Source of the DNA: Pyrobaculum calidifontis JCM 11548 | GTDB lineage: Archaea > Thermoproteota > Thermoprotei > Thermoproteales > Thermoproteaceae | DNA: 32,000 nucleotides | NCBI RefSeq assembly: GCF_000015805.1 | Contig: NC_009073.1 | Span: 1,230,001-1,262,000 of the forward strand | Direction: 5' to 3' | Shown: one piece after another, positions 16,036 through 32,000 of the stretch | How the letters are laid out: every line of letters begins with the position of its first letter | Numbering within the stretch: position 1 is the stretch's first letter | Position numbers and translations under genes: made by a program | The notes under the pieces: generated by a model | Seen by the model: only the letters and a program-made list of their open reading frames with translations | Database searches by the model: none | What the model was told of the DNA's origin: nothing

Positions 16036-16287
16036 CGCGTCCGTCTTACGCCGGTCCGTCCCAGGGGTAGGATCTGAGAAGTCTCCCGACGGCTCTCTTG
16101 GCGTTGACGGCTCCTCCAACACGCCGAAGTCTCCGCTTTTATACGCTTGTTGCCACTGTTACGAGGGCGGAGCGCAAAAGGCTGTAGTGAGCTGTGAAGA
16201 CGTAGATACTTAGTGCTCCCAACGGAAGGCGAAGGCAGCGTGTACTTTAAGTACATCACATTTTTAACCCACGGCCCCGAGGGAGCC

Positions 16288-18039
16288 ATGTGGAAGCTGG
16301 CGGCGGCCGTGTTGGCCTTGGCGCTTCTCTTGGCCTTGGCCGGCGGCTCGCCGCCTCAGCCCACCGGCGCGGTAGAGGCGCTGCAGCTCCCAGTGGTTAA
16401 CCTCTCGGAGCTACGCATGGTGACCGGCTGGTCCGCCGTCCCCACCGCCCTCTTCTACTACGCGGCCGCCGACGCCGCGCCCGCCGTTGCGGCAAACGTG
16501 CAAGTGGCCGGCGTGGACGAGGAGGACTACGTGAAATTCGACGGGGAGAGGCTCTACGTTGCGTATAGGGGCTACGTCTACGTGGTGGGGCCAGACTTGT
16601 CCGTGGAGAAGAGGTTGCCCTGCCCCTCCTCGCTGGTCTGCTACGTCTTTGCCTGGGGCAACTCGGTGCTGGCCTACTCGCCCACTGAGGCGGGCACAGT
16701 GCTCTACCTATACGGCCCGTGGGGGAGGGCTGTCTACAACTACTCCGGGTACCCCGTGTCCACGAGGATGCGGGACGGCGTGGTGTACATTGTCGCAATG
16801 GGGGGCGTGGAGGCGGAGATAAACGGCGCCGCGGTCAAGGAGGCCCCCCTCCTCTCCCTCGGCGATCCCCCCGCCACGCTCATAGTGGCGGCTGTGGACA
16901 TGAGGACAGGCCGCTTCAACGCCGCGGCCTACGTCTCCTCCGCGGTCAGCCACGTCTACATGAGGGGAAACAGGCTGTACATAGCCGCGCCCCTGAGCCC
17001 CTACGACCTCGCCTACGAGGCGACCAAGGCCGTGTGGGAGAGACTGCCCCCGGAGATGAGGGCCGTGCTTGACATGGAAAACGTCTACACCTTCTACAAG
17101 ACCGTCAGAGGGTTGCTGGAGTGGAGAGGCGGGGAGTACCTGTCCTACCTCAACAAGGCCAACACCACCACGGCCACCAAGATCTACGTCTTTGAGACAG
17201 AGGGCGTGGAGGCAAGGCTCAAGGCCGTCTTTATAGTCCCCGGCCGCGTCTTAGACCAATTCGCCGTGGAAGAGCTTGGGGACAGGCTGGTGGTGGCCAC
17301 CACCGCCGCCCCCGTCAAATTCGAGCTCCTACGCCCACCCCCAGCCGACCCGTTCCCCTCGGTGATTAAGAGAGAGGGGTTGCCCACACAAATTCCGCCG
17401 CCCTCCCCACCGCCCGTGCTCTACGCCGCTGAGGGGGAGCCCACAAACGCCGTCTACCTCTACACGCCGGATGGGACATTGGTGGTCAAGGCGGAGGGGC
17501 TGGCCAGTGGCGAGAGGATATACGCCGCGCGCCTCGTGGGCTCCACTCTCTACCTAGTCACCTTTAGGCAGGCCGACCCGCTGTTTGCGGTGGACTTGTC
17601 CCGGGGAGAGCCACGGGTGCTTGGCTACCTCAAGACGCCGGGCTTCTCGGAGTACCTACACCCCGTGGCCCCCGGCAAGTTGTTGGGCGTCGGCGTCTAC
17701 GGCGACGGCGTCAAGATCGCGCTGTTCGACGTCTCCAACCCCGCGGCGCCCCGCGAGGTCTCCAACATCACCGTGCCCCACTCCTATACACCCATCATAT
17801 TCGACCACCACGCCTTCGCCTACAGCCAGGGAGTGGCCGTGGTGCCCATCCGCCTCCAGTGGCGGCAGTGCGCCGTTCTCGCCGTGGAAGTCGGCGACGG
17901 CCTAACGGCGAGGACCTTGGAGGGCGTGTGCGCAGACAGGGCCTTCTTCAAAGACGGGAGGATCCACCTCGTGGGCAGAGGCCGCGTGTGGCTATACGAC
18001 GCCACCTTCAACAAGGTTGGAGAAGTGGGGCTAAGTTAA
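16288..18039 (+). CDS. Secreted beta-propeller domain protein (COG4880-like)
   Basis: The start is trimmed to ATG 16288 (MWKLAAAVLALALLLALAGG, a signal peptide). ..DYVKFDGERLYVA.., ..RLVGSTLYLVTFRQADPLFAVDLS..P.VLGYLKTPGFSEYLHPV.. and ..VKIALFDVSNPAAPREV.. match the Beta_propel family as I recall it. TATA-like ACATTTTTAAC lies about 25 bp upstream. Confidence 0.75.
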   Translation: MWKLAAAVLALALLLALAGGSPPQPTGAVEALQLPVVNLSELRMVTGWSAVPTALFYYAAADAAPAVAANVQVAGVDEEDYVKFDGERLYVAYRGYVYVVGPDLSVEKRLPCPSSLVCYVFAWGNSVLAYSPTEAGTVLYLYGPWGRAVYNYSGYPVSTRMRDGVVYIVAMGGVEAEINGAAVKEAPLLSLGDPPATLIVAAVDMRTGRFNAAAYVSSAVSHVYMRGNRLYIAAPLSPYDLAYEATKAVWERLPPEMRAVLDMENVYTFYKTVRGLLEWRGGEYLSYLNKANTTTATKIYVFETEGVEARLKAVFIVPGRVLDQFAVEELGDRLVVATTAAPVKFELLRPPPADPFPSVIKREGLPTQIPPPSPPPVLYAAEGEPTNAVYLYTPDGTLVVKAEGLASGERIYAARLVGSTLYLVTFRQADPLFAVDLSRGEPRVLGYLKTPGFSEYLHPVAPGKLLGVGVYGDGVKIALFDVSNPAAPREVSNITVPHSYTPIIFDHHAFAYSQGVAVVPIRLQWRQCAVLAVEVGDGLTARTLEGVCADRAFFKDGRIHLVGRGRVWLYDATFNKVGEVGLS

Positions 18040-19093: not shown

Positions 19094-19585
19094 GACAGTA
19101 GAAACGGCGTCTACGAGGTCTTGCTAGGCAACGGCGTGGCACCGGGGCAGTTGACAAAGGCCCTCTTCTACACTGCCATGTCTGCCGCAACCGCCTTCTA
19201 CATCTTGGCAGTGGCCTTGGCGGCCGTAATTACAGCACTAGCGGCGCCGGAGGCGTGGCCCATAATGCCCGCCGCGGCGCTGGCCGCCTTGGCCAGCGTG
19301 TTCTCAGCCGCTGCGTTGATACTCGTCGTTGGCCTTGCAAAACCTCAGCTGTTCAAAATTCGCACAGGCGTAGGGGCTACTCAGAACTTGGCGTATCTGC
19401 TTGCCCTACTGCCCTCAATGGCTCTTACATTTGCAACAACGCCGTTTTTAATATCCCTAGACGTGGAGACGGCCACCATCGTGATTTCCGCCACCTCGGC
19501 CGCGGCTATTTTGGCGAGTGTAGCCGCGGTGTTGGTGGCCCCCCGGTTTTTGAACAGGGAGGAGCTCATCGCCCCTGGGGACTAG
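19094..19585 (+). CDS. ABC-2 type permease, C-terminal part, in the same frame as 18812..19093
   Basis: No stop lies between TAG 19091-19093 and the track ORF 19121..19585. The sequence reads DSRNGVYEVLLGNGVAPGQLTKALFY.., which aligns with the conserved ..E.E.GT.E.LL..PVS...I.GK.. block of ABC-2 permeases, followed by 4 TM helices. If it is expressed independently, the start would be TTG 19121. Confidence 0.65.
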   Translation, partial: DSRNGVYEVLLGNGVAPGQLTKALFYTAMSAATAFYILAVALAAVITALAAPEAWPIMPAAALAALASVFSAAALILVVGLAKPQLFKIRTGVGATQNLAYLLALLPSMALTFATTPFLISLDVETATIVISATSAAAILASVAAVLVAPRFLNREELIAPGD

Positions 19586-20637
19586 AGGACTGGGTGGGGC
19601 ACGAGCACTAGCACGTATATGCCCATGGCGGCCAACACAGCGAGGCCGACTGGGGCCGCCAGCCTTATCCACTCTTTGAAGCCTATCTTGAGGACTCCCG
19701 CCAGGACTATGTTGGGGACGTTGCCCGGTATAGTCAATCCCCCGGAGAGCACTAGGGAGACTAGGAAGGCCCTAAGGGCGTCTACAGCCATCTCTGGGCC
19801 CACCAGCGCCGCCACCAGCGTTGCGTTGTCGGCCACGGCGGAGAGGAGGCCGAACACGTAGAGCACCTCCTTCCCCAGCTCCGCCACCGCCTCTGCTATG
19901 GGCTTGAAGAACTCCCCCAGGATAGTCAAGGCGAAGATGAATATGAACACCTTCGCCGCCCTTAGGAAGACCTCCCTCAGCTCGGGCTCGTAGGGCTCCA
20001 CCTCCACCTCCGCGGCGCGTAGCCTCTTCAGCGTGAAGTAGGCGTAGAGGGCGAAGAAGAGGACCACTATGAACACGGCGTCGAAGAGGACGTGGACGAG
20101 GTAGAAGAAGCCCTGCTTCAGCTTAGCCACCGCGATGGTGGAGAGGGGCTCCCCTATTGGCAAAAGGGCGGCGCCTGCCCCAATGGCGAAGGCCCCGTAG
20201 ACCGCGGCCCTGGCCTTGTAGCCGTGGGGCGCGTCTGCGAAGCCGAGTAGCTCCGCCAACACAGCCGCCGCCACTATGGCGGAGATGGCGCTGGAGGACA
20301 GGCCAAGGACGAAGATGAGGAGAGCCACGACCCCAGGCCTCGCCAAGACGTCCGCCGCCTTGGCCATCCTATGCCGAAGCGCATAGAAGACCAGGCCCGC
20401 CGCCAGCACCACTTGGACAATTCCAATGGGCAAGTAGCCCAGGCCGGGCTGGTAGACCGCCACGGGGTGGAGGAGTGCCTCCTCGATCAAGTGGAGCGAC
20501 CAAATGCCCTCCAGCGTCGCGCCGACCACCGCCATCGCCAAGAAGAAGAGCTCCAAGTTGTGCTCCACCTTCTTAGACACCACCGGCAGGGCGATCAACA
20601 AGACAAGGAAGACCACTTGGAGAAGGGGCAACTCCAT
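19582..20637 (-). CDS. Polytopic membrane transporter, DUF1646-like putative cation transporter
   Basis: 351 aa with about 10 TM helices. GEPLST and GNVPNI motifs are reminiscent of ion-transporter superfamily proteins. The family assignment is from memory only. Confidence 0.6.
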   Translation of the reverse strand: MELPLLQVVFLVLLIALPVVSKKVEHNLELFFLAMAVVGATLEGIWSLHLIEEALLHPVAVYQPGLGYLPIGIVQVVLAAGLVFYALRHRMAKAADVLARPGVVALLIFVLGLSSSAISAIVAAAVLAELLGFADAPHGYKARAAVYGAFAIGAGAALLPIGEPLSTIAVAKLKQGFFYLVHVLFDAVFIVVLFFALYAYFTLKRLRAAEVEVEPYEPELREVFLRAAKVFIFIFALTILGEFFKPIAEAVAELGKEVLYVFGLLSAVADNATLVAALVGPEMAVDALRAFLVSLVLSGGLTIPGNVPNIVLAGVLKIGFKEWIRLAAPVGLAVLAAMGIYVLVLVPHPVL

Positions 20638-23038: not shown

Positions 23039-24046
23039 GTGGACGTGGTCTACTACCTCGTGGGCCTTTCAGTCACGATCATCGGCATGTTAGGCGGCGC
23101 CATGTTCTGGCTAGGGCGGAAATTCGCCCAAATAGACGAACGCCTCCAGCGGCTGGAAAAGGGATATGAAGAACTAAGAAGCACTCTGACTGAGTTCAAG
23201 AACTGGACTGAGAAAAAATTCGCCGAGGTTGAGGGAGAGCTGGCCGGGGTCAAGGAGAGAGTCGCGGCTGTGGAAAAGGGGTTAGAGGAGGTCAAAGGCC
23301 GGCTTGTCAACGTAGAAAGTAGACTTATGGGCGTAGAGAAAGAGTTAGAGGAAGTCAAGGGCAGGCTGGCCAACGTGGAGGGCAGAGTTGCAGGCCTAGA
23401 GGGGAGGCTGGCGGAGGTGGAGAAGGGTTTGGCCGATGTGAGGAGTCGGCTTGCCAACGTAGAAAGTAGGCTTGTAGGCGTAGAGAAGGGGCTGGAGGAG
23501 GTCAAGAGCCGGTTAGCCGTCGTAGAGGGTAGAGTTGTAGAAGTTGAGAAAGGTCTAACAGATGTGAGGAATAGGCTGGCCGGCGTGGAGGGCAGAGTTG
23601 CAGAAGTCGAGAGAGGTCTTGCCGATGTGAGGAGTCGGCTTGCCGGGGTGGAGGGTCGTCTTGTGGAGTTTGAGGAGAGGTTTGTCTCTTTTGCCGACTC
23701 GGTGAGGGGGAGTGTGGTTTCTATGAATTCTCTTGTGGTGGAGTTTCTTGGGTTGAAGGGTCTTCTCTCTCGTGAGGAGGTTGGGTTTTTGTCGAGGGAG
23801 GCCTCACGCCTTGCCCTCGCCATAAGGCCAAACCCCATCACCGAGGAAGAGGTGGAATTCCTAAGGCGAGTCTTCTCTAAGCCAGTGGAGGAGATGACCG
23901 TGGAAGAGCTGGAAAAGGCGGCGGAAATCGCCAAGCGGTGGTGGTACCGAGAAGGCAAAGAAGAGGCCTACAGGCTGTTCTTAATAGCCTGGACCATTAG
24001 GACATACAAGCTAATCCAAGAGCCGAGAGAGAAGAAGGAGGGCTAG
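23039..24046 (+). CDS. N-terminally membrane-anchored coiled-coil repeat protein (hypothetical)
   Basis: 335 aa with a GTG start. It has a TM helix (VVYYLVGLSVTIIGMLGGAMFWL) and then about 150 aa of heptad/21-residue repeats (VEKGLxxV[KR]xRLxxVE[GS]R[LV]xx). A helical C-terminal domain follows. TATA-like AAATAAAATATTTTA lies about 25 bp upstream. Confidence 0.7.
   Translation: MDVVYYLVGLSVTIIGMLGGAMFWLGRKFAQIDERLQRLEKGYEELRSTLTEFKNWTEKKFAEVEGELAGVKERVAAVEKGLEEVKGRLVNVESRLMGVEKELEEVKGRLANVEGRVAGLEGRLAEVEKGLADVRSRLANVESRLVGVEKGLEEVKSRLAVVEGRVVEVEKGLTDVRNRLAGVEGRVAEVERGLADVRSRLAGVEGRLVEFEERFVSFADSVRGSVVSMNSLVVEFLGLKGLLSREEVGFLSREASRLALAIRPNPITEEEVEFLRRVFSKPVEEMTVEELEKAAEIAKRWWYREGKEEAYRLFLIAWTIRTYKLIQEPREKKEG
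23270..23668 (+). repeat. Six 63-bp (21-codon) tandem repeats plus one extra 21-bp heptad unit
   Basis: Units start at 23270, 23333, 23417, 23480, 23543 and 23606, with the extra heptad at 23396-23416. Long exact matches occur between non-adjacent units: GCCGATGTGAGGAGTCGGCTTGCC in units 3 and 6, AACGTAGAAAGTAG in units 1 and 3, and GTGGAGGGCAGAGTTGCAG in units 2 and 5. Confidence 0.9.
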
Positions 24047-25775: not shown

Positions 25776-28700
25776 TTAACCCCACGCTTCCACCGTCCTT
25801 ACCACTAGGTACTCCCCTGGCCCAGCCTTGAAGCCGATGAACTGTGCGTTGGGCGGCGCGGCGCAGCCAAACCTCGCCAGCACGTTGCCCGACGAGTCTC
25901 TCACGATGACGTCTCCCAGCGCGGCGAGGGGCCTAAGCTCTACCCACTGCGAGGAGGGGCTGTAGTAGCCGTAGACGCAACCCGCCGACGAGCCGCGCAA
26001 GTATAGGCCGAAGGCCTCGCCCAGCGTCAAGGTGAGGGCAACGTACTTCCCCACGCCGGTGAAATTGGCCACGTAGGTCAACGCGCCTTGCACCACCGGC
26101 GTATATGCGACGCCTCCCGCTGTGACTAGGAGGTAGTTGTAGGAGGCCCAGGCGTATCCCCTCCCGCTCCAGCCAGCTGGCGGTGTACAGGCGCTGTATG
26201 TCACTGCTAGGTCGTCCCAATAGACTTTAAATCCGCCGGAGCCTCCGCCGTCTACGGCGGCCATGGCCACTGCCAGCACTGCCCCAGGCCCGCTGAGCGA
26301 TATCGACCACTGGTACTTAGACACATTCGTCATTGTGCCCAGGCTACGGAAGACGTACTGAGTCGTGTTTTGGCATGTCCCCTGGCACACCACTGTGCCA
26401 GGGCTTATGAAGGCGCTGACGGTGGTGGCGGTGCCGTCACTGCGGTAGTAGATGTACTCCCTGTCCACTGCCCCGTCTCCGTCTGTGTCTACGCCCACTG
26501 AGACGTAGGCAACGTTGTTCTGCGTATCGCCGGTGTTCCTCACGTAGAGGCCCCACACCGAGATCGAGGTGCCGAGGACAGGGATGGGCTGGGGGAGCCA
26601 GTACTGCGCCACGGCGTACACCACCCCGCCAGAGGGGACAGCCTCAGTGGCCAGAGAGGGGGGCGAAGTGGGGCTGGCGGCTCTAGTCACGTAGACGGCT
26701 GAGGCGGAGCTTTTCACAACCCTTACGGCGGGGGGTAGAGAGCAACTCCACCCCGCCATGTTAAGGTTGTCAAACCGCCCCGTGGCGGCGCCATCTTGAC
26801 GCCCACTGTCGCCTACCACAAAAGCCACCTTTGTCACCACGCCGTCAATCCCCAAGTCGTTGCGCAAATTAAAGTTGGCGGAGAAGAAGGAGTAGAGCGA
26901 GCCGCTAATGGAGCCACAGGGACTTGGCACAGGGCCTAGGTCTTTTACCACGTGGCTGGCGGGCGGCGACGAGGTGCAGCTCCCCGTCCTCATGCGGTAG
27001 TCGCAGACTTTTTGACGGTTAATTACATCCCAAAGCTCAGCATTTCTATCTTGCAAGGAAGTTTGTGCATCACATATCCTCTTCACATAATAAACGTATA
27101 CTTTAGAGCCGTCTGGCTTTACGACTTCGAGCTGTATGTAGGTAATTTCGTCGACGGAATTGTCGCCGTATGCTAATCTGTGCTGTACTTGTATTGTGGT
27201 GTCTGTTGATATGGCTAGGCTTGAGATATCCCATATTAGGGCCGACACGCCGTAGGCGATTGTGCTACTGCCGTCTGCCGTGATTTGCAACGTACCGCCG
27301 CTTGTGGTAACGCTACCCGTAGCCCTAACCCACTGGTCATAAGACACGCCGGGCGGGGCTAGGCCTGTGTCCCAGCCCCACGTGAGACTACGCTGTTGAC
27401 AATAGTTAAACTGATCCACCACCTGCGAAGTGCCGCAGGAAAACGTCCACTGGGCGAGGCGGGACATGGGCTCAGCTGTGAAGTTGGCCACGGCCTGGCT
27501 ACAGCTGCTGGCAGTGGCGTTGGCCGTGACCCAGTAGGCGGTGTTGGAGCGGGTGGCCCACCTCACTGGGGCTTGGAGCGGCGTGGGAGAGCCCGAGGAC
27601 TGCGTCGGCTTGAGCTGGAGGTTTGGCCCAAGCCAAATCTCGTAGTAGCCGGGGGAGCCCCCCTCCCCCGTCTTCACGAGCCACGCCGGGGAGGGGCCGG
27701 AGAGCCGGCCCACCACGTAGTCCTCCCACCACCCAGGCATAAACTTCAGCCGGAGAGAAAGGCCAGACACGGCGAGAAGCGGGAATATCGTGGAGTTCGG
27801 AGTGAGGTAGAAGGGCGGGCAGTAGGGCGCGGCGACCGGCGGCCTGACAGCGATGAAGCGGACGAGACCAGGGCCCTGGGCGACGGCAAACACAGACTTC
27901 CCCGGCGACTCCGCGCTCCGGCCAGCCACCACCTTCAACACGACCCAGTTAGCCGGCAAAAAGCCCGGCCGGCCCACCACGCCGTCGTAAAGGACCACCC
28001 CCTTGTAGCTCGCCGTGACGCGGACAGCCACGGTAGTGCTGTTATAAGACCAGAAGGCATTAGTCACAGTGCAATTAAACGTGGCAACCCACACGGCCCG
28101 GGTTTCCCCCGGCGCCAATGTCAACGGACGCCACGCCCCCTCCTCCAAGCCCTCTACCCCTATCTGTCTGCACTGCAATAGCCTCCTGTCGTAGTCAAGG
28201 AAGTAGGTGTAGTTGAGCGGCGTGTAGCCCGGGTTGGGGTTCGTAAACCTCAGGTAGAGGTTGAAGATGGTAGAGTTGTGGGTCGAGTTGACGTAGGCCA
28301 CAGTCCTATCAGCCTCAGCCCACACCCGCACCTTCCCCACCACCACGTCCACCGTCACTATGTACCCCCCTCCGTCAACCACCCTATACGTGTAGTTACC
28401 CACAACCCCCGGCGGACACGCCACACTCCCCCCTGTCGCGCGGCCACTGTCCAACACGGAGCCTCCCCTGACGACGAAGTAGTAGAGGGGCTCAGAAGCG
28501 CCGCCCACCACGCATGCCGAGCCGGTGTAGTTGAAAGATCCCCACTTCAGCGGTTTCTGCACCACGGTGGCTACGAATGTGTCGGCCGAGGCGATGAGGA
28601 TGCCGTTGTAGTACGCCTCGACCCGCGCGTATATGGGGATAGGCGGAGCCCCAGCGCTGTAAAAGTAGTCGTCCTTAGTGACGCTACACACGAAGTAACC

Positions 28701-29300
28701 TAGATTGAGGGAGGCGGACCCCCCGGGAGGCACCACCACCGGCTCTTCGGTGTTCTTCTTGCTACATTCAATATATTGGCTGTTGCCGTAGCCGTACAAC
28801 TCCGCCTTAAAGCTTGTAAATACGGCGTACCCATCGCTGGGATTGTATATATTCACATAGAGGACCACCGCCGCTTCTTTGTACAAGTCGTCTACGTACA
28901 GAAACGCGGCATTCACCCTCGGCGAGAGGGTTGCATAGCCGACGTGCACCTTAGCCAAGTAGATCCCCCCATCCCTCCTCACCGCCTTGTACACATACTC
29001 ACCGGGCCCAGGGGGGCAACGGGGCTCCGTGCCCTCGTAGACGAGGCGCCCCTCCCCGTCCACCACCACGTAGTAGATCCCCGAGCCCCCCAGCCAGCAC
29101 TTCAGCTGTCCCCCGGCGGTGGAGGCGTTGAACGTCGTCTCTTGGTCTACGGTGACGGCGGAGTACACCGCCGCGACGCCCTTCTGCGTCGTCGACATGA
29201 GGAAGTTGTAGAAATAGAAGAGAGACAGCACAATCACTGCAAAGGCCGTGAGGAATATGGCGAAGGAGGCGACGGTGGAGAGGCCCCTAATTCTCCACAT
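25776..29300 (-). CDS. 1174-aa secreted protein with a class III (prepilin-like) signal peptide; putative pilus-associated adhesin
   Basis: The N-terminus is MWRIRG|LSTVASFAIFLTAFAVIVLSLFY: a basic residue, Gly at -1, and then a hydrophobic helix. The protein is beta-rich with paired Cys and at least a dozen N-x-S/T sequons. It has a tandem internal duplication and a DTDGDGAVD calcium-loop-like motif. It overlaps the upstream pilin-like gene by 14 nt. Confidence 0.8.
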   Translation of the reverse strand: MWRIRGLSTVASFAIFLTAFAVIVLSLFYFYNFLMSTTQKGVAAVYSAVTVDQETTFNASTAGGQLKCWLGGSGIYYVVVDGEGRLVYEGTEPRCPPGPGEYVYKAVRRDGGIYLAKVHVGYATLSPRVNAAFLYVDDLYKEAAVVLYVNIYNPSDGYAVFTSFKAELYGYGNSQYIECSKKNTEEPVVVPPGGSASLNLGYFVCSVTKDDYFYSAGAPPIPIYARVEAYYNGILIASADTFVATVVQKPLKWGSFNYTGSACVVGGASEPLYYFVVRGGSVLDSGRATGGSVACPPGVVGNYTYRVVDGGGYIVTVDVVVGKVRVWAEADRTVAYVNSTHNSTIFNLYLRFTNPNPGYTPLNYTYFLDYDRRLLQCRQIGVEGLEEGAWRPLTLAPGETRAVWVATFNCTVTNAFWSYNSTTVAVRVTASYKGVVLYDGVVGRPGFLPANWVVLKVVAGRSAESPGKSVFAVAQGPGLVRFIAVRPPVAAPYCPPFYLTPNSTIFPLLAVSGLSLRLKFMPGWWEDYVVGRLSGPSPAWLVKTGEGGSPGYYEIWLGPNLQLKPTQSSGSPTPLQAPVRWATRSNTAYWVTANATASSCSQAVANFTAEPMSRLAQWTFSCGTSQVVDQFNYCQQRSLTWGWDTGLAPPGVSYDQWVRATGSVTTSGGTLQITADGSSTIAYGVSALIWDISSLAISTDTTIQVQHRLAYGDNSVDEITYIQLEVVKPDGSKVYVYYVKRICDAQTSLQDRNAELWDVINRQKVCDYRMRTGSCTSSPPASHVVKDLGPVPSPCGSISGSLYSFFSANFNLRNDLGIDGVVTKVAFVVGDSGRQDGAATGRFDNLNMAGWSCSLPPAVRVVKSSASAVYVTRAASPTSPPSLATEAVPSGGVVYAVAQYWLPQPIPVLGTSISVWGLYVRNTGDTQNNVAYVSVGVDTDGDGAVDREYIYYRSDGTATTVSAFISPGTVVCQGTCQNTTQYVFRSLGTMTNVSKYQWSISLSGPGAVLAVAMAAVDGGGSGGFKVYWDDLAVTYSACTPPAGWSGRGYAWASYNYLLVTAGGVAYTPVVQGALTYVANFTGVGKYVALTLTLGEAFGLYLRGSSAGCVYGYYSPSSQWVELRPLAALGDVIVRDSSGNVLARFGCAAPPNAQFIGFKAGPGEYLVVRTVEAWG

Positions 29301-29700
29301 ACTCCCCCCTAGGCCCAGTCAACCTGTAACGCGCGTCCGCGCGGTATTCTAGCCGAGTGATCACACAGCCCACGCCTCCCGGCGGCACGGGCCCCCCACC
29401 CCAGCACCACGATGTCTCGCTCGCATCTACAACAGTGCCGCTTACTATGAGATAGGCCCTGTCGAAGGTGCAGGGCACCGAGCCTGTGTTCACCACGTAG
29501 AGCCGCGCCCACCCGCCGTCGTTAACCACGGCGAAAATCCTCCCCACGCACAGCTGGGAGGCCCCCTCCACCGTCAGCCGCGACACCGACGGCCCATAGA
29601 CCATGTTGAAAAACACAGCCACCACAAACGCGGAAAGCGCCACAGTGACCACAAGAAGCAACACCGAGGAAAACACCTCGCTCAAACCCCTCAAAGCCAT
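29287..29700 (-). CDS. Small pilin-like protein with class III signal peptide
   Basis: The start is trimmed to ATG 29700, giving MALRG|LSEVFSSVLLLVVTVALSAFVVAVFF, a DUF361-like archaeal pilin N-terminus. ..ARLYVVNTGSVPCTFDRAYL.. is typical of an archaeal pilin/FlaG-like beta domain. Confidence 0.65.
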   Translation of the reverse strand: MALRGLSEVFSSVLLLVVTVALSAFVVAVFFNMVYGPSVSRLTVEGASQLCVGRIFAVVNDGGWARLYVVNTGSVPCTFDRAYLIVSGTVVDASETSWCWGGGPVPPGGVGCVITRLEYRADARYRLTGPRGEYVEN

Positions 29701-29799
29701 AGCCACATATACACACAAGAAGAAGTATTTTACTGTGCACCCCGCCGACGGTGCACCCCCCGACCCACACCACAAAATATATGTTACACTGAAAATACT
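29701..29799. promoter_or_regulatory. Divergent promoter region of the pilus locus
   Basis: TATA-like TAAAATAC (- strand, 29726-29733) lies about 26-33 bp from ATG 29700. AAAATATATG (29774-29783) lies about 20 bp from ATG 29800. Between them GTGCACCCC occurs twice (29735-29743 and 29751-29759), each copy followed by CCGAC. Confidence 0.5.
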
Positions 29800-30234
29800 A
29801 TGCCCATGAAAACCAAAGGCCTCGAACCAATAGTCGCCGCGGTGTTGCTAATAGTCGTCGCAGTAATAGGCGCAGTGCTGGTATACCTATGGTTCTCAGG
29901 CTATGTAACAAGAGCCACCTCTCAGGCAGAACAACTATCCGCAGCCGAACAACTAAAAATAGAAGCAGTATCAAAAACAGGCACTACAGTTAGTGTAAAT
30001 GTAAGAAATGTCGGAGAAGTGCCTGTTAAAATAGCTTCAGCATATGTGTTAAATGCCACAACATTAACAATGATATGTGGAGGATCTCTCACCAGCCCAC
30101 AGCAAATAGACCCCGGAACTATACAAACTATAAATGTGCCGGGTACTTGTAATTTAATCGCTGGCGCCCGCTATATTGTTAAAGTGGTTACGGCGCGTGG
30201 TACTGAGGCTGCGGCTACCTTTATTTCGCCGTAG
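29800..30234 (+). CDS. Archaeal type IV pilin (DUF361/Pilin_N type)
   Basis: The N-terminus is MPMKTKG|LEPIVAAVLLIVVAVIGAVLVYLW, the classic KGLEPI archaeal prepilin motif. A beta-rich domain follows (..VSVNVRNVGEVPVKIASAYVLN..). Confidence 0.85.
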   Translation: MPMKTKGLEPIVAAVLLIVVAVIGAVLVYLWFSGYVTRATSQAEQLSAAEQLKIEAVSKTGTTVSVNVRNVGEVPVKIASAYVLNATTLTMICGGSLTSPQQIDPGTIQTINVPGTCNLIAGARYIVKVVTARGTEAAATFISP

Positions 30235-30265
30235 GTGTTTTAAATTCCCCTCTTTTTTTCTCCCC

Positions 30266-31036
30266 GTGTTTTCTTTCTTGTATGGGTGGGTTTTGTGGAT
30301 TGGGCTTGGGGTTGGGGCTGTGTTGGGGGTGGTGGGGTGGCTTGGGTTTAGGAGGGCTGTGTTTGTGTACCGTCTGGAGGGGCAGATTCCGCAGGTGCTC
30401 CGCATGGTGGCGGACGCGGTGGGGGCTGGGATGGGGCTGAGGGAGGCGTTTGAGGTGGTGGCGGGGATGGGGCTGTACCCGGCGAATGCGGTTTTTAGGC
30501 GGGTGCTCTCGCTGGCGGAGGTGGGTGGGCTGGCGGTGGATGAGGCTCTTTGGAGAGTGGCCTCGGAGCTCCCCTCCCCCAATTTTAGGAGGTTTGCCCT
30601 TATCGTGGCTGAGGGGGCGAGGAGTGGTGCTAGGCTGGGGGAGGTGCTCGGCGTGGCGGCGAGGAGCTTCGCCGTGGTGGTGGACTTTAGGCGGGAGTTG
30701 TGGTCTCAGCTGAGGCCCTACGTGGCGCTTTTCTACGCCGTGGTGGCGGTGTACGTCGTCCTCGCCGACGTCTTGGTATACTTCCTACTGCCCAGCGTGG
30801 CTAAGTTCTCCGCCTCCGGGGGGCCCTGGGGAGGAGTCTCCGCCTCTGTGCCCCCGAGGGAGGAGCTTGTGCCAGTCCTCTTCCTCACGGCCCTCGTCCA
30901 GTCGGTGATCGGCGGCCTCATCGTGGGGAGGCTCGCGTACTTTAGCCCCCGGGCTGGGCTTCTGCACAGCGGCGTTGCGTCGGCGGCCTCGGCGGTGGGG
31001 CTAGTGGCCCCGGCGTGGCTTGGGTGGCAGCCATGA
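30266..31036 (+). CDS. TadC/FlaJ-like pilus platform membrane protein (single T2SSF domain)
   Basis: ..IPQVLRMVADAVGAGMGLREAFEVVA.., ..FRRFALIVAEGARSGARLGEVL.. and the flanking TM helices match the T2SSF domain. The start is uncertain: GTG 30266 is chosen to avoid overlap with the pilin gene, while the track ORF starts at 30176. Confidence 0.75.
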   Translation: MFSFLYGWVLWIGLGVGAVLGVVGWLGFRRAVFVYRLEGQIPQVLRMVADAVGAGMGLREAFEVVAGMGLYPANAVFRRVLSLAEVGGLAVDEALWRVASELPSPNFRRFALIVAEGARSGARLGEVLGVAARSFAVVVDFRRELWSQLRPYVALFYAVVAVYVVLADVLVYFLLPSVAKFSASGGPWGGVSASVPPREELVPVLFLTALVQSVIGGLIVGRLAYFSPRAGLLHSGVASAASAVGLVAPAWLGWQP

Positions 31037-32000
31037 CGTCGCCTTCCCAGATTGCAGAAGTGTTGGACGAGTACGAGGTGTCTGAGTTTGTGCATGCCGT
31101 TGTCTACGTGGATAGGGACGGGTTTAGGCGGTATAGGGCTGTGGAGCCTCCGCTGGGCGAGGAGGAGGCGGCGGCCCTCAAGAGGCTTAAGTCGGCTATT
31201 CAGAACGTGGGGGGTGTCCGCGACGGGGTGCTTAAGCTGGCGCGGGAGAGGCGGGTTGAGTACTTGGAGGAGTTGGCGAAGAGGGCGGCGTCTGAGTTTA
31301 AGATTAGGGTGGATGAGCGGGCGTGGAGGAAGGTCATGTACTACCTCCGGCGGGATCTGCTGGGGTACGGCAAGTTGGACCCCCTGTTCGCCGACCCCTT
31401 TATCGAGGATATCCACGTCGATGGGCCGGGCAGTGTGTGGATTTGGCACGCGAGGTGGGAGTCTCTGCGCACGGACGTGGCGCTGTCTGAGGAGGAGCTC
31501 GACGCCTATGTGCAGAGGCTTTCGTCGCTTGTGGGTAAGCCCGTCTCGTACGCCGACCCGGTCCTCGAGGGGATGCTCCCGGAGGGGTACCGCCTGGAGT
31601 TGGCCATTCCCCCCGTGTCGCCTAGGGGCCCCTCTTTCGTGGTTCGGAAGTACTTCGTGGAGCCCCTGACCCTGGTCGACCTTGTGAAAATGGGCACGAT
31701 ATCGGCGGACGCCGCGGCGTATCTGTGGCTTATGTTGGACTACGGGCGTAACATTGTGATTGTGGGGCCGACGGGTGCTGGGAAGACCACCTTGCTCAAC
31801 GCCCTCCTCTACTTGGTGAGGCCGGAGGCCAAGATTCTCACCATCGAGGACACTAGGGAGATTAACATTGTCCACGACCACTGGCAGGCCTTGCTCACAA
31901 GGCCGGCGAGGGGGGAGGGGGTGCGCGACGTCTCTGCGTTTGACCTGCTGGCCGTTGCCATGAGGTCACGGCCTGACTACGTGGTGGTGGGGGAGGTGAG
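31033..32000 (+). CDS. FlaI/TadA/VirB11-type secretion ATPase (3' end beyond the window)
   Basis: ATG 31033 overlaps the platform gene stop (ATGA). The frame is open to the window end and so is absent from the ORF track. It reads MTSPSQIAEVLDEYEV.., ..DPFIEDIHVDGPGSVWIWH.., Walker A GPTGAGKTTLLNAL, then ..ILTIEDTREI.. and ..SRPDYVVVGEV. Confidence 0.9.
   Translation, partial: MTSPSQIAEVLDEYEVSEFVHAVVYVDRDGFRRYRAVEPPLGEEEAAALKRLKSAIQNVGGVRDGVLKLARERRVEYLEELAKRAASEFKIRVDERAWRKVMYYLRRDLLGYGKLDPLFADPFIEDIHVDGPGSVWIWHARWESLRTDVALSEEELDAYVQRLSSLVGKPVSYADPVLEGMLPEGYRLELAIPPVSPRGPSFVVRKYFVEPLTLVDLVKMGTISADAAAYLWLMLDYGRNIVIVGPTGAGKTTLLNALLYLVRPEAKILTIEDTREINIVHDHWQALLTRPARGEGVRDVSAFDLLAVAMRSRPDYVVVGEV

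What the first reader, a model, noticed from the sequence alone, without database searches (positions are those of the whole stretch)
25776..32000. Type IV pilus-like locus whose divergent operon encodes a 1174-aa protein with a prepilin-type signal peptide
On the + strand lie a DUF361 pilin (29800-30234), a short single-domain TadC/FlaJ-like platform protein (30266-31036) and a FlaI/TadA-type ATPase (31033->32000), with 4-nt overlaps between the last two. Across a 99-bp promoter region, a 137-aa pilin-like gene is translationally coupled by a 14-nt overlap to a 1174-aa gene. Both of these start with the [KR]G|[LS] plus hydrophobic-helix pattern that the archaeal prepilin peptidase (PibD/FlaK class) cleaves. 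Archaeal pilins are normally about 120-250 aa. A protein above 1100 aa with that N-terminus would put a very large, probably glycosylated beta-rich domain on a pilin-like anchor. That fits a tip or minor-pilin adhesin, or a pilus-independent surface protein that uses the pilin pathway. The platform protein is about half the size of canonical two-domain FlaJ/TadC proteins. I do not recognise the large ectodomain as any named family.
Basis: partly seen in the sequence, partly recalled or inferred. Interest (0 to 1): 0.78.

Follow-up and report, generated by a model that had tools for sequence, protein, structure and literature searches.

The report
Giant pilin-like adhesin beside archaeal pilus
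Beside the genes for an already-solved type IV pilus of the hot-spring archaeon Pyrobaculum calidifontis lies a conserved gene pair, a small pilin and a 1174-residue protein with a pilin-style front end, that probably forms a sticky cap on that pilus; this is real but was already flagged in general terms in a 2016 census.

Summary
The window is Pyrobaculum calidifontis. The + strand pilin (Pcal_1342) is 100% identical to PDB 8FK7, the published "flagellar-like" archaeal type IV pilus. Across a 99-bp divergent promoter lie a 137-aa true pilin paralogue (Pcal_1341) and, overlapping it by 14 nt, the 1174-aa Pcal_1340.

The RG|LS leader plus long hydrophobic helix of Pcal_1340 is the best-conserved part of its N-terminal half. 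The small+large pair sits next to the same pilus genes in every related locus with enough flank.

The "half-size" platform has a simple cause: a second single-domain TadC gene follows the ATPase just outside the window.

The ectodomain matches no Pfam, NCBIfam or PDB family. It consists of two duplicated Ig-like module pairs followed by a confidently modelled chain of jelly-roll/CBM-like domains. One roughly 200-aa cassette is swapped between close relatives. The protein also has excess N-glycosylation sites and a DxDxDG loop.

The most likely role is a tip-located modular minor pilin/adhesin. This is not proven.

Makarova et al. [quoted passage not shown] The kind is therefore known. This protein itself has not been studied.

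The parts
25776..29300 (-). Pcal_1340, 1174-aa pilin-like giant protein: leader MWRIRG, hydrophobic/helical residues 7-49, then an all-beta ectodomain
   Evidence: ORF; 100% identical to WP_193322596.1; no Pfam, NCBIfam or PDB sequence hit; 73 relatives among 1.84 billion representatives
29154..29300 (-). Residues 1-49: class III-type leader (cut predicted after G6) and long N-terminal helix
   Evidence: RGLS motif and mean Kyte-Doolittle hydropathy 2.06 over 25 residues; near-invariant R5 G6 S8 T9 V10 A11 F13; AF2 helix 7-49 at low pLDDT; weak hhalign similarity to pilin N-termini, P about 5e-4 to 2e-3
27966..29153 (-). Residues 50-445: two tandem copies of a two-domain beta-sandwich module (A1-B1-A2-B2), each domain with one conserved Cys pair
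   Evidence: hhalign B1 vs B2 probability 98.7%, E 2.5e-16; A1 vs A2 probability 97.6%, E 3.9e-12; pLDDT about 75-85; conserved C68/C95, C179/C205, C263/C295, C377/C410
26721..27383 (-). Residues ~640-860: variable cassette domain, swapped between close relatives
   Evidence: P0002 is about 90% identical on both sides but 6-26% identical here; two cassette types are spread across orthologues and paralogues
25779..26720 (-). Residues ~861-1174: conserved C-terminal jelly-roll-like domains, including the DTDGDGAVDRE loop (residues 938-948, nt 26457-26489)
   Evidence: AF2 of residues 455-1174 gave pLDDT 90, pTM 0.80, all beta; Foldseek gave weak hits to tandem CBM22, SGBP-B, Endo-D and PNGase F type domains; motif
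29287..29700 (-). Pcal_1341, 137-aa minor pilin paralogue, translationally coupled to the large gene (14-nt overlap here; ATGA overlap in orthologues)
   Evidence: TIGR02537 22.2 bits, above the cut-off of 20; hhalign vs the major-pilin family probability 96.8%, E 2.4e-10 over 100 columns; always immediately upstream of the large gene; junction sequences
29701..29799 (.). Divergent promoter region: TATA-like boxes at 29725-29732 (small+large operon) and 29774-29781 (pilin operon); inverted repeat GTGCACC-N8-GGTGCAC at 29735-29756
   Evidence: Read directly from sequence; the GCACAG[TC]AAAATA[CT]TT and TATA/CACCA elements recur in orthologous intergenic regions
29800..30234 (+). Pcal_1342, major pilin of the flagellar-like archaeal type IV pilus
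   Evidence: 100% identical over 144 aa to PDB 8FK7 chain A; paper PMC10334743
30266..31036 (+). TadC/FlaJ-like platform protein, first half-gene (one T2SSF domain)
   Evidence: PF00482 E 1.7e-11; the partner half-gene (261 aa, T2SSF) lies after the ATPase outside the window
31033..32000 (+). FlaI-type assembly ATPase, N-terminal 322 of 491 aa (cut by the window end)
   Evidence: PF00437 E 1.6e-21; NF058587 FlaI 270 bits; full length 491 aa in L001

Best explanation
Pcal_1341 (137 aa) and Pcal_1340 (1174 aa) are a co-expressed pair of pilin-type proteins belonging to the clade 4B type IV pilus of P. calidifontis, whose shaft is the 144-aa pilin of PDB 8FK7.

Proposed mechanism:
1. Both are made from one leaderless transcript that diverges from the pilin-TadC-ATPase operon. 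Translation is coupled, so they are produced in similar, low amounts.
2. Each enters the membrane by its N-terminal hydrophobic helix, and the short leader is removed after Gly by the PibD/FlaK-type prepilin peptidase.
3. Type IV filaments grow from the base, and an ectodomain of about 1130 residues cannot fit in the shaft lattice. The large protein would therefore enter first and cap the filament, with the small pilin as the adaptor to the major pilin.
4. The ectodomain is a stalk of four Ig-like domains carrying several glycosylated jelly-roll/CBM-like domains. One of these is a swappable cassette. This head would bind a surface or glycan ligand.

Shown: gene order, coupling signals, conservation, N-terminal signature, domain architecture, cassette exchange.
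Inferred: cleavage, tip position, adhesion.
For: - The pilus is real: the pilin equals 8FK7 (PMC10334743).
- The order KaiC-p91-TadC2-ATPase-TadC1-pilin-small-large holds in six loci. In Thermoproteus and one Pyrobaculum MAG, pilin, small and large are co-directional.
- The small and large genes are always adjacent, with overlapping stop/start and a G-rich SD-like stretch.
- The small protein is a true pilin paralogue.
- The large protein has a conserved RG|LS leader, a single N-terminal hydrophobic helix about 27 residues long (too long for a Sec h-region) and no other TM segment. AF2 models a helix at 7-49 followed by beta domains.
- The mature N-termini of the pilin (LEP) and the small protein (LSE) carry Glu. 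The large protein (LSTVA) does not. This parallels bacterial cap subunits that lack Glu5 (PMC10191384).
- The ectodomain looks extracellular and ligand-binding: N-X-S/T sequons are about twice the shuffled expectation, p<=0.001, in four orthologues; there is one conserved Cys pair per domain; the C-terminal half models at pLDDT 90 with CBM/lectin-like Foldseek neighbours.
- A cassette is swapped between ~90%-identical relatives.
- Some relatives keep the same N-terminus but carry a different C-terminal domain (P0032, P0050).
- The same reading was proposed for clade 4B loci by Makarova et al. 2016.
Against: - No experiment bears on cleavage, location or binding.
- The large protein hits neither Pilin_N nor TIGR02537. 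Its N-terminal similarity to pilins is weak (P about 1e-3), and its beta domains show no sequence similarity to pilin domains.
- The leader is only 3-6 residues. In the small-protein family the -2 residue is R, L or N, so processing by the peptidase is uncertain.
- A second small+large pair in Pyrobaculum sp. WP30 (L014) has no pilus machinery within 8 kb. L013 shows the same pair but is a 5.5-kb contig, too short to say. The C-terminal half also exists as ~700-aa proteins with a different N-terminus, away from ATPase/TadC genes. The ectodomain can therefore work without this pilus.
- The cryo-EM paper reports no tip structure and does not mention the gene.
- All fold matches have low TM-scores (<0.3).
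Confidence: 0.5

Rival explanations
1. Pilus-independent surface protein. Pcal_1340 uses the class III signal and the pilin pathway only for membrane insertion and anchoring, as do the Sulfolobus sugar-binding proteins of the bindosome. It then sits on the cell surface, alone or with Pcal_1341 in a short pseudopilus-like stub, as a glycan- or substrate-binding protein.
For: Small+large pairs occur without nearby ATPase/TadC genes (L014; L013 is too short a contig to judge). The C-terminal half exists as stand-alone ~700-aa proteins with another N-terminal anchor. The small protein and the pilin give weak hits to bindosome BasA/BasC models. The C-terminal half has CBM-like fold neighbours.
Against: Adjacency to the clade 4B pilus genes is strict in six loci. 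In two lineages the pair is co-directional with the major pilin. The bindosome hits are far below the curated cut-offs. No ABC transporter is linked to the pair.
Confidence: 0.25
2. Base or stator-like component. The pilin paralogue Pcal_1341 and Pcal_1340 stay in the membrane uncleaved. Like FlaF/FlaG of the archaellum, they would tie the assembly machine to the S-layer across the wide pseudo-periplasm, forming a collar for this flagellar-like pilus.
For: The locus has a FlaI-like ATPase (270 bits to the FlaI model) and a KaiC/FlaH-like ATPase. The published paper notes that only FlaF/FlaG are missing. FlaF/FlaG are themselves pilin paralogues. The -2 residue of the small protein is not always basic. 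A four-domain Ig-like stalk could span a periplasm-like space.
Against: There is no sequence hit to FlaF/FlaG families. A cassette swapped between near-identical relatives, together with lectin/CBM-like head domains, fits an exposed distal ligand-binder better than a structural collar. No supercoiling or rotation was seen for this filament.
Confidence: 0.08
3. General envelope protein (S-layer or sheath subunit) that merely neighbours the pilus genes.
For: It is a large, glycosylated, cysteine-rich, all-beta secreted protein. One generic Foldseek hit was to the SbsB S-layer protein, using the low-confidence full-length model.
Against: The family is tiny and patchy: 73 representatives, all named ones Pyrobaculum, Thermoproteus or Thermofilaceae. 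The gene is always paired with a pilin paralogue. It is absent from the list of clade 4B-lacking Pyrobaculum species such as P. aerophilum and P. arsenaticum in the ATPase table. There is no specific S-layer fold match.
Confidence: 0.05

Closest known systems
Clade 4B type IV pilus systems of Thermoproteales (Makarova et al. [quoted passage not shown] 2023, PMC10334743; PDB 8FK7)
   Same: [quoted passage not shown] The pilin is the very protein in 8FK7.
   Different: Nothing differs in kind; this is that system. The published locus picture spans 5461 bp, exactly KaiC to Pcal_1341 in L001, so it stops short of the large gene. Neither paper describes the large protein's architecture or its variable cassette. 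I could not confirm its arCOG number because the supplementary table held is truncated.
Bacterial modular and tip minor pilins: CofB/TcpB of type IVb pili, and PilB/PilC of Streptococcus sanguinis (PMC10191384)
   Same: A pilin-type N-terminus carries grafted non-pilin binding domains. The protein is proposed to sit at the tip and start assembly, and the cap subunit lacks the N-terminal Glu (sequence).
   Different: There is no sequence or specific fold similarity. This is an archaeal class III signal with a 3-6 residue leader. At 1174 aa the protein is two to three times larger. It is paired with a dedicated small pilin rather than a four-pilin HIJK set.
DUF2341/PilY1-like large proteins predicted at the tips of euryarchaeal pili (Makarova et al. 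2016)
   Same: These are large secreted proteins encoded in archaeal pilus loci and predicted to be tip adhesins.
   Different: No DUF2341 or any other Pfam domain is present here. PilY1 itself is not a pilin, whereas this protein has a pilin-type N-terminus.
[quoted passage not shown]
   Same: These are non-pilin ectodomains placed on the surface through a class III signal and a dedicated Bas pilin-like set. The small protein gives weak BasA/BasC hits.
   Different: No solute-binding fold and no linked ABC transporter are present. The hits are far below the cut-offs.

Membership tests
Archaeal type IV pilin / class III signal-peptide protein (PibD/FlaK substrate) | Short N-terminal leader ending in [KR]-[GA], followed directly by about 20 or more hydrophobic residues | tested here: met
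   Large protein MWRIRG|LSTVASFAIFLTAFAVIVLSLFYFY. Small protein MALRG|LSEV... Pilin MPMKTKG|LEPIV.... The large protein's motif is nearly invariant in 11 homologues. In the small-protein family G(-1) is invariant, but the -2 residue is R, L or N.
Archaeal type IV pilin / class III signal-peptide protein (PibD/FlaK substrate) | Match to curated N-terminal models (Pfam Pilin_N PF07790, NCBIfam TIGR02537) | tested here: not met
   The large protein has no hit at E<=0.1 in either library. The small protein (22.2 bits) and the major pilin (24.3 bits) both pass the TIGR02537 cut-off of 20.
Archaeal type IV pilin / class III signal-peptide protein (PibD/FlaK substrate) | Long N-terminal alpha-helix followed by an Ig-like beta-sandwich domain | tested here: inconclusive
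Archaeal type IV pilin / class III signal-peptide protein (PibD/FlaK substrate) | Cleavage by an A24 prepilin peptidase and incorporation into a filament | not testable with these tools
   This needs biochemistry, mass spectrometry or imaging. No peptidase gene lies in the window.
Clade 4B Thermoproteales T4P system (Makarova 2016) | FlaI-like ATPase with two TadC-like genes, two PilA-family pilins and a large signal-peptide protein | tested here: met
   L001: T2SSF(256)-T2SSE(491)-T2SSF(261), plus the 144-aa and 137-aa pilins and the 1174-aa protein.
Clade 4B Thermoproteales T4P system (Makarova 2016) | ATPase falls in subclade 4B of the published ATPase tree | tested here: inconclusive
   P. 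calidifontis ATPase GI 126459954 clusters with Caldivirga GI 159041007, whose neighbours are labelled subclade_4B. That this GI is the ATPase of this locus is inferred from gene-order arithmetic. The table rows for P. calidifontis are cut off.
Bacterial modular / tip minor pilins (CofB, TcpB, S. sanguinis PilB/PilC) | Homology of the pilin module or the grafted module | tested here: not met
   There is no PDB sequence hit and no such structure among the Foldseek matches. The resemblance is functional analogy only.
S-layer protein | Specific fold or sequence similarity to known S-layer families, and general presence across the genus | tested here: not met
   There is no family hit. The only match was a generic low-TM hit to SbsB from a low-confidence model, and none came from the confident C-terminal-half model. 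The family is narrow and patchy.
Archaellum stator FlaF/FlaG | Sequence match to FlaF/FlaG, and residence in an archaellum operon with FlaB | tested here: not met
   Neither the small nor the large protein hits FlaF/FlaG. The genome lacks a canonical archaellum operon, according to PMC10334743.

The most novel reading that the evidence does not exclude
The Pcal_1341/Pcal_1340 pair is not a tip adhesin. It would instead be the functional counterpart of the FlaF/FlaG stator that the published analysis found missing from this flagellar-like pilus: pilin paralogues that stay in the membrane and couple the FlaI/KaiC motor to the S-layer. That would make clade 4B systems a true mechanistic intermediate between pili and the archaellum. 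A less radical but still new reading is that Pcal_1340 is the largest bona fide archaeal type IV pilin, a cap with an exchangeable receptor-binding cassette.
Probability: 0.08. Interest if true: 0.8.

Novelty: new member of a known kind. Interest (0 to 1): 0.35.

Why it matters
The shaft of this pilus is one of the few archaeal type IV pili known at atomic level, and it is discussed as a bridge to the archaellum. What it binds, and how its assembly starts, are unknown. The conserved small-pilin/giant-protein pair is the obvious candidate for both roles, yet the published locus figure leaves the giant gene out.

If the protein is tip-located, it would be a rare archaeal example of a modular pilin. 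It would also give a handle on attachment, biofilm formation or virus-receptor biology in Pyrobaculum. The swapped cassette suggests that binding specificity is evolving.

The practical gain is modest, because the idea (minor pilin or adhesin) was already put forward in 2016.

Tried and rejected
- Pfam, NCBIfam and PDB sequence searches of the large protein found nothing.
- The full-length AF2 model with 12 sequences was poor (pLDDT 56). Its Foldseek hits were generic multi-Ig proteins and I did not use them.
- Re-modelling residues 455-1174 with 27 sequences gave pLDDT 90. Foldseek against PDB and BFVD still gave only low-TM CBM, lectin and phage-tail-like matches.
- hhalign of the duplicated beta domains against the pilin families was negative.
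- I tried to confirm the arCOG assignment and a prepilin peptidase from the Makarova supplements. The P. calidifontis rows are cut off, and the last column of Table S3 turned out to be 'number of distinct systems', not peptidases.
- A literature search for the locus tags found nothing.
- The genome-collection scan used only two peptide patterns and returned just four loci.
- PA14-like appearance of the alternative C-termini in P0032/P0050 (my impression from reading the sequence) was not supported by Pfam.
- I rejected a Sec signal peptide: the hydrophobic run is about 27 residues and starts directly after RG.
- I rejected the many antisense ORFs in the region as high-GC artefacts.
Full report
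**What is there.**
- The large ORF is 25776-29300 (-), 1174 aa.
- A 137-aa ORF runs from its ATG at 29287-29700 (-) and overlaps the large gene by 14 nt.
- The intergenic region is 99 bp, 29701-29799.
- On the + strand lie a 144-aa pilin (29800-30234), a 256-aa protein with one T2SSF domain (30266-31036) and a T2SSE ATPase starting at 31033 with a 4-nt overlap.
- The three pilin-like N-termini read MWRIRG|LSTVASF..., MALRG|LSEVFSS... and MPMKTKG|LEPIVAA... Each is followed by one hydrophobic stretch of about 25 residues, and none has a second TM segment.

**Identity of the locus.** The large protein is 100% identical to a Pyrobaculum calidifontis protein. The locus tags are Pcal_1340 (large), Pcal_1341 (small) and Pcal_1342 (pilin).

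The pilin is 100% identical over its full length to PDB 8FK7 chain A. This is the "flagellar-like" archaeal type IV pilus solved by Kreutzberger et al. 2023 (PMC10334743). The locus is therefore an experimentally visualised pilus.

That paper's locus figure covers NC_009073:1259287-1264747, which is 5461 bp. This is exactly the span from the KaiC-like gene to the end of Pcal_1341 in locus L001 (2187-7647). The figure therefore includes the small pilin-like gene and stops short of the 1174-aa gene. The text mentions neither a minor pilin nor an adhesin.

**Start codon of the large gene.**
- The original GenBank call (ABO08762.1, 1140 aa) began at M35 and removed the signal. RefSeq now calls 1174 aa.
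- Residues 1-50 are the best-conserved window of the N-terminal half: 57-66% identity to orthologues that are 35-41% identical overall.
- R5, G6, S8, T9, V10, A11 and F13 are nearly invariant.
- A G-rich SD-like stretch precedes the ATG. In orthologues the ATG overlaps the small gene's stop as ATGA.
- The hydrophobic run begins directly after RG and is about 27 residues long. This fits a class III signal or TM helix, not a Sec h-region.

**The "half-size" platform.** Fetching the flanks shows the full machinery: pilin, T2SSF (256 aa), T2SSE (491 aa), T2SSF (261 aa), a 91-aa protein and a KaiC-like ATPase (371 aa). The platform is thus split into two single-domain genes flanking the ATPase, and the second lies just outside the window.

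This is what Makarova et al. [quoted passage not shown]

Their ATPase tree and tables place a P. calidifontis ATPase (GI 126459954) with P. islandicum, Thermoproteus, Caldivirga and Vulcanisaeta. The Caldivirga neighbours are labelled subclade_4B. The table rows for P. calidifontis itself are truncated in the copy held, so the arCOG of Pcal_1340 (probably arCOG07037, FlaFind-positive, 1 TM) could not be confirmed.

**Synteny.** The order KaiC-p91-TadC2-ATPase-TadC1-pilin-small-large is conserved in six loci:
- P. islandicum (L004)
- two metagenomic Pyrobaculum-like contigs (L006, L011)
- Pyrobaculum sp. WP30 (L015)
- a Pyrobaculum MAG (L012)
- a Thermoproteus MAG (L008/L009)

In L008 and L012 the pilin, small and large genes are co-directional. 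Identity to P. calidifontis falls from about 80% (ATPase) through 60-75% (TadC) and about 50% (pilin, small) to 35-50% (large).

The small and large genes are always adjacent. A second small+large pair in strain WP30 (L014) has no machinery within 8 kb; L013 shows the same pair but is only a 5.5-kb contig. The conserved unit is therefore the pair.

**The small protein.** It passes the curated cut-off of TIGR02537. A profile-profile comparison with the major-pilin family gives probability 96.8%, E 2.4e-10 over 100 columns. It is a genuine pilin paralogue. Its mature N-terminus would be [LV]SE[VI], with an invariant Glu at +3. The -2 residue is R, L or N in different lineages.

**The large protein.** It has no Pfam, NCBIfam or PDB sequence match. 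A profile search of 1.84 billion representative proteins finds only 73 relatives. All named ones are Pyrobaculum, Thermoproteus or Thermofilaceae.

*Architecture.*
- Leader and helix occupy residues 1-49 (AF2 helix 7-49, low pLDDT).
- Residues 50-445 are two tandem copies of a two-domain beta-sandwich module. hhalign gives B1 vs B2 probability 98.7%, E 2.5e-16, and A1 vs A2 probability 97.6%, E 3.9e-12. Each domain has one conserved Cys pair, and pLDDT is about 75-85.
- The C-terminal half (residues 455-1174), re-modelled with 27 sequences, gives pLDDT 90 and pTM 0.80 and is all-beta.

*Fold comparisons.* Foldseek against the PDB returns only weak matches (best E 2e-5, TM<0.3). These are tandem CBM22, Bacteroides SGBP-B, reelin, Endo-D, meprin MAM, PNGase F and GH11/12 jelly rolls. 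Against viral models it returns phage minor-tail and host-specificity proteins. This indicates a chain of jelly-roll/CBM-like domains and no specific family.

*Other features.*
- N-X-S/T sequons are about twice the shuffled expectation in four orthologues, p<=0.001.
- A D-T-[DN]-G-D-G-x-x-D-x-E loop is present once here (residues 938-948) and twice in most orthologues.
- Residues ~650-850 form a cassette. A relative that is about 90% identical on both sides is only 6-26% identical there. Two cassette types are spread across orthologues and paralogues.
- The family is modular. Proteins of about 700 aa consist of the C-terminal half with a different N-terminal anchor (P0016-P0024). Others keep the MRGLSTVA N-terminus and first modules but carry an unrelated C-terminus (P0032, P0050).

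**Most likely function.** I think the pair forms the priming and cap complex of the 8FK7-type pilus. The large protein would sit at the distal tip as a modular adhesin, and the small pilin would act as adaptor.

The argument combines what is shown here (linkage, coupling, pilin-type N-terminus, extracellular ligand-binder-like ectodomain, exchangeable cassette) with established principles of type IV filaments. Those filaments assemble from tip to base, starting with a minor-pilin complex. Cap subunits lack the N-terminal Glu, and modular pilins carry grafted adhesive domains (PMC10191384). Here the pilin (LEP) and the small protein (LSE) carry an N-terminal Glu, and the large protein (LSTVA) does not.

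Cleavage, tip location and binding are inferences. I give this explanation about 0.5.

**Rivals.**
- A pilus-independent surface protein using the pilin pathway, bindosome-like (0.25). It is supported by the unlinked pair and the stand-alone C-terminal-half paralogues.
- A base or stator-like FlaF/FlaG analogue (0.08). It is attractive because the published analysis stresses that only FlaF/FlaG are missing. It is disfavoured by the swapped cassette and the lectin-like head.
- A general S-layer protein (0.05). It is disfavoured by the narrow, patchy distribution and the obligatory pairing with a pilin.

**Novelty.** The kind is known, and the literature already offers the same interpretation in one sentence. 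The pilus itself is published.

What is not in the papers I could read:
- the link of this particular giant gene to the solved pilus
- its truncated original annotation
- its domain architecture
- the small+large pair as a mobile unit
- the cassette exchange

No paper in the searchable library mentions the locus tags. I rate it a new, uncharacterised member of a known kind, of moderate interest.

Noticed in passing
window 16213-18039 (+): A 608-aa protein with a strong Beta_propel (PF09826) match, E 1.4e-73. Makarova et al. describe a beta-propeller 'S-layer protein' (arCOG05471) linked to some clade 4B pilus loci. This one lies about 8 kb from the large gene (about 12 kb from the pilin).
   Followed up: no
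window 25776-29300 (-), first 34 codons: The original GenBank annotation (Pcal_1340, ABO08762.1, 1140 aa) starts at M35 and removes the class III-type N-terminus. RefSeq WP_193322596.1 has the 1174-aa form. This may be why the gene was left out of the published locus figure.
   Followed up: yes
window 29774-29806: The TATA-like box AAAATATA at 29774-29781 sits only 19-26 nt before the ATG at 29800. It is well placed for a leaderless transcript starting at the second ATG (29806, MKTKGLEP...). This agrees with the 142-aa RefSeq form and with orthologue N-termini. The mature pilin is unaffected.
   Followed up: partly
window 29735-29756: The inverted repeat GTGCACC-N8-GGTGCAC lies between the two divergent TATA boxes and could be a regulator site. 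It is not obviously conserved in the orthologous intergenic regions.
   Followed up: partly
L010 4754-11089: A 737-aa paralogue of the C-terminal half (P0019) sits in a co-directional run of unannotated genes. Several of their products share an N-terminal hydrophobic segment followed by an N-A-[ST]-L-[PS]-P motif. No ATPase or TadC gene is nearby. This may be another pilin-like set (clade 4E/4G type).
   Followed up: partly
P0032 and P0050 (no locus fetched): These proteins have the same MRGLSTVAAF N-terminus and first modules but a completely different ~350-aa C-terminal region ending in GASDGGG[AT]P. It has no Pfam hit. This suggests head-domain swapping on a common pilin-like stalk.
   Followed up: partly
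L006 6510-6989 vs L011 6494-6954: Some loci carry a second, more divergent major-pilin-like gene (159 aa) between the pilin and TadC1. In L011 it is broken into 78-aa and 56-aa fragments. P. calidifontis lacks it.
   Followed up: no
window 23039-24046 (+): A 335-aa protein with an N-terminal TM segment and a long array of near-identical coiled-coil repeats (VEKGLEEVKGRLANVE...). It gives a weak FlaC_arch match (30.5 bits, cut-off 27.8) among many generic coiled-coil hits.
   Followed up: no
window 19582-20637 (-); L004, L006, L007, L011: A DUF1646 membrane-protein gene recurs within a few kb of the large gene in several genomes, as do PaREP1 and archaeal ATPase_2 genes. This is probably conserved neighbourhood, not part of the system.
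   Followed up: no
L001 3299-3574 and orthologues: A conserved ~91-aa protein with no family match (55-61% identity across genera) lies between TadC2 and the KaiC-like ATPase in five of the six full loci (not detected in L006). It is an uncharacterised core component of the clade 4B machinery, outside the window.
   Followed up: no
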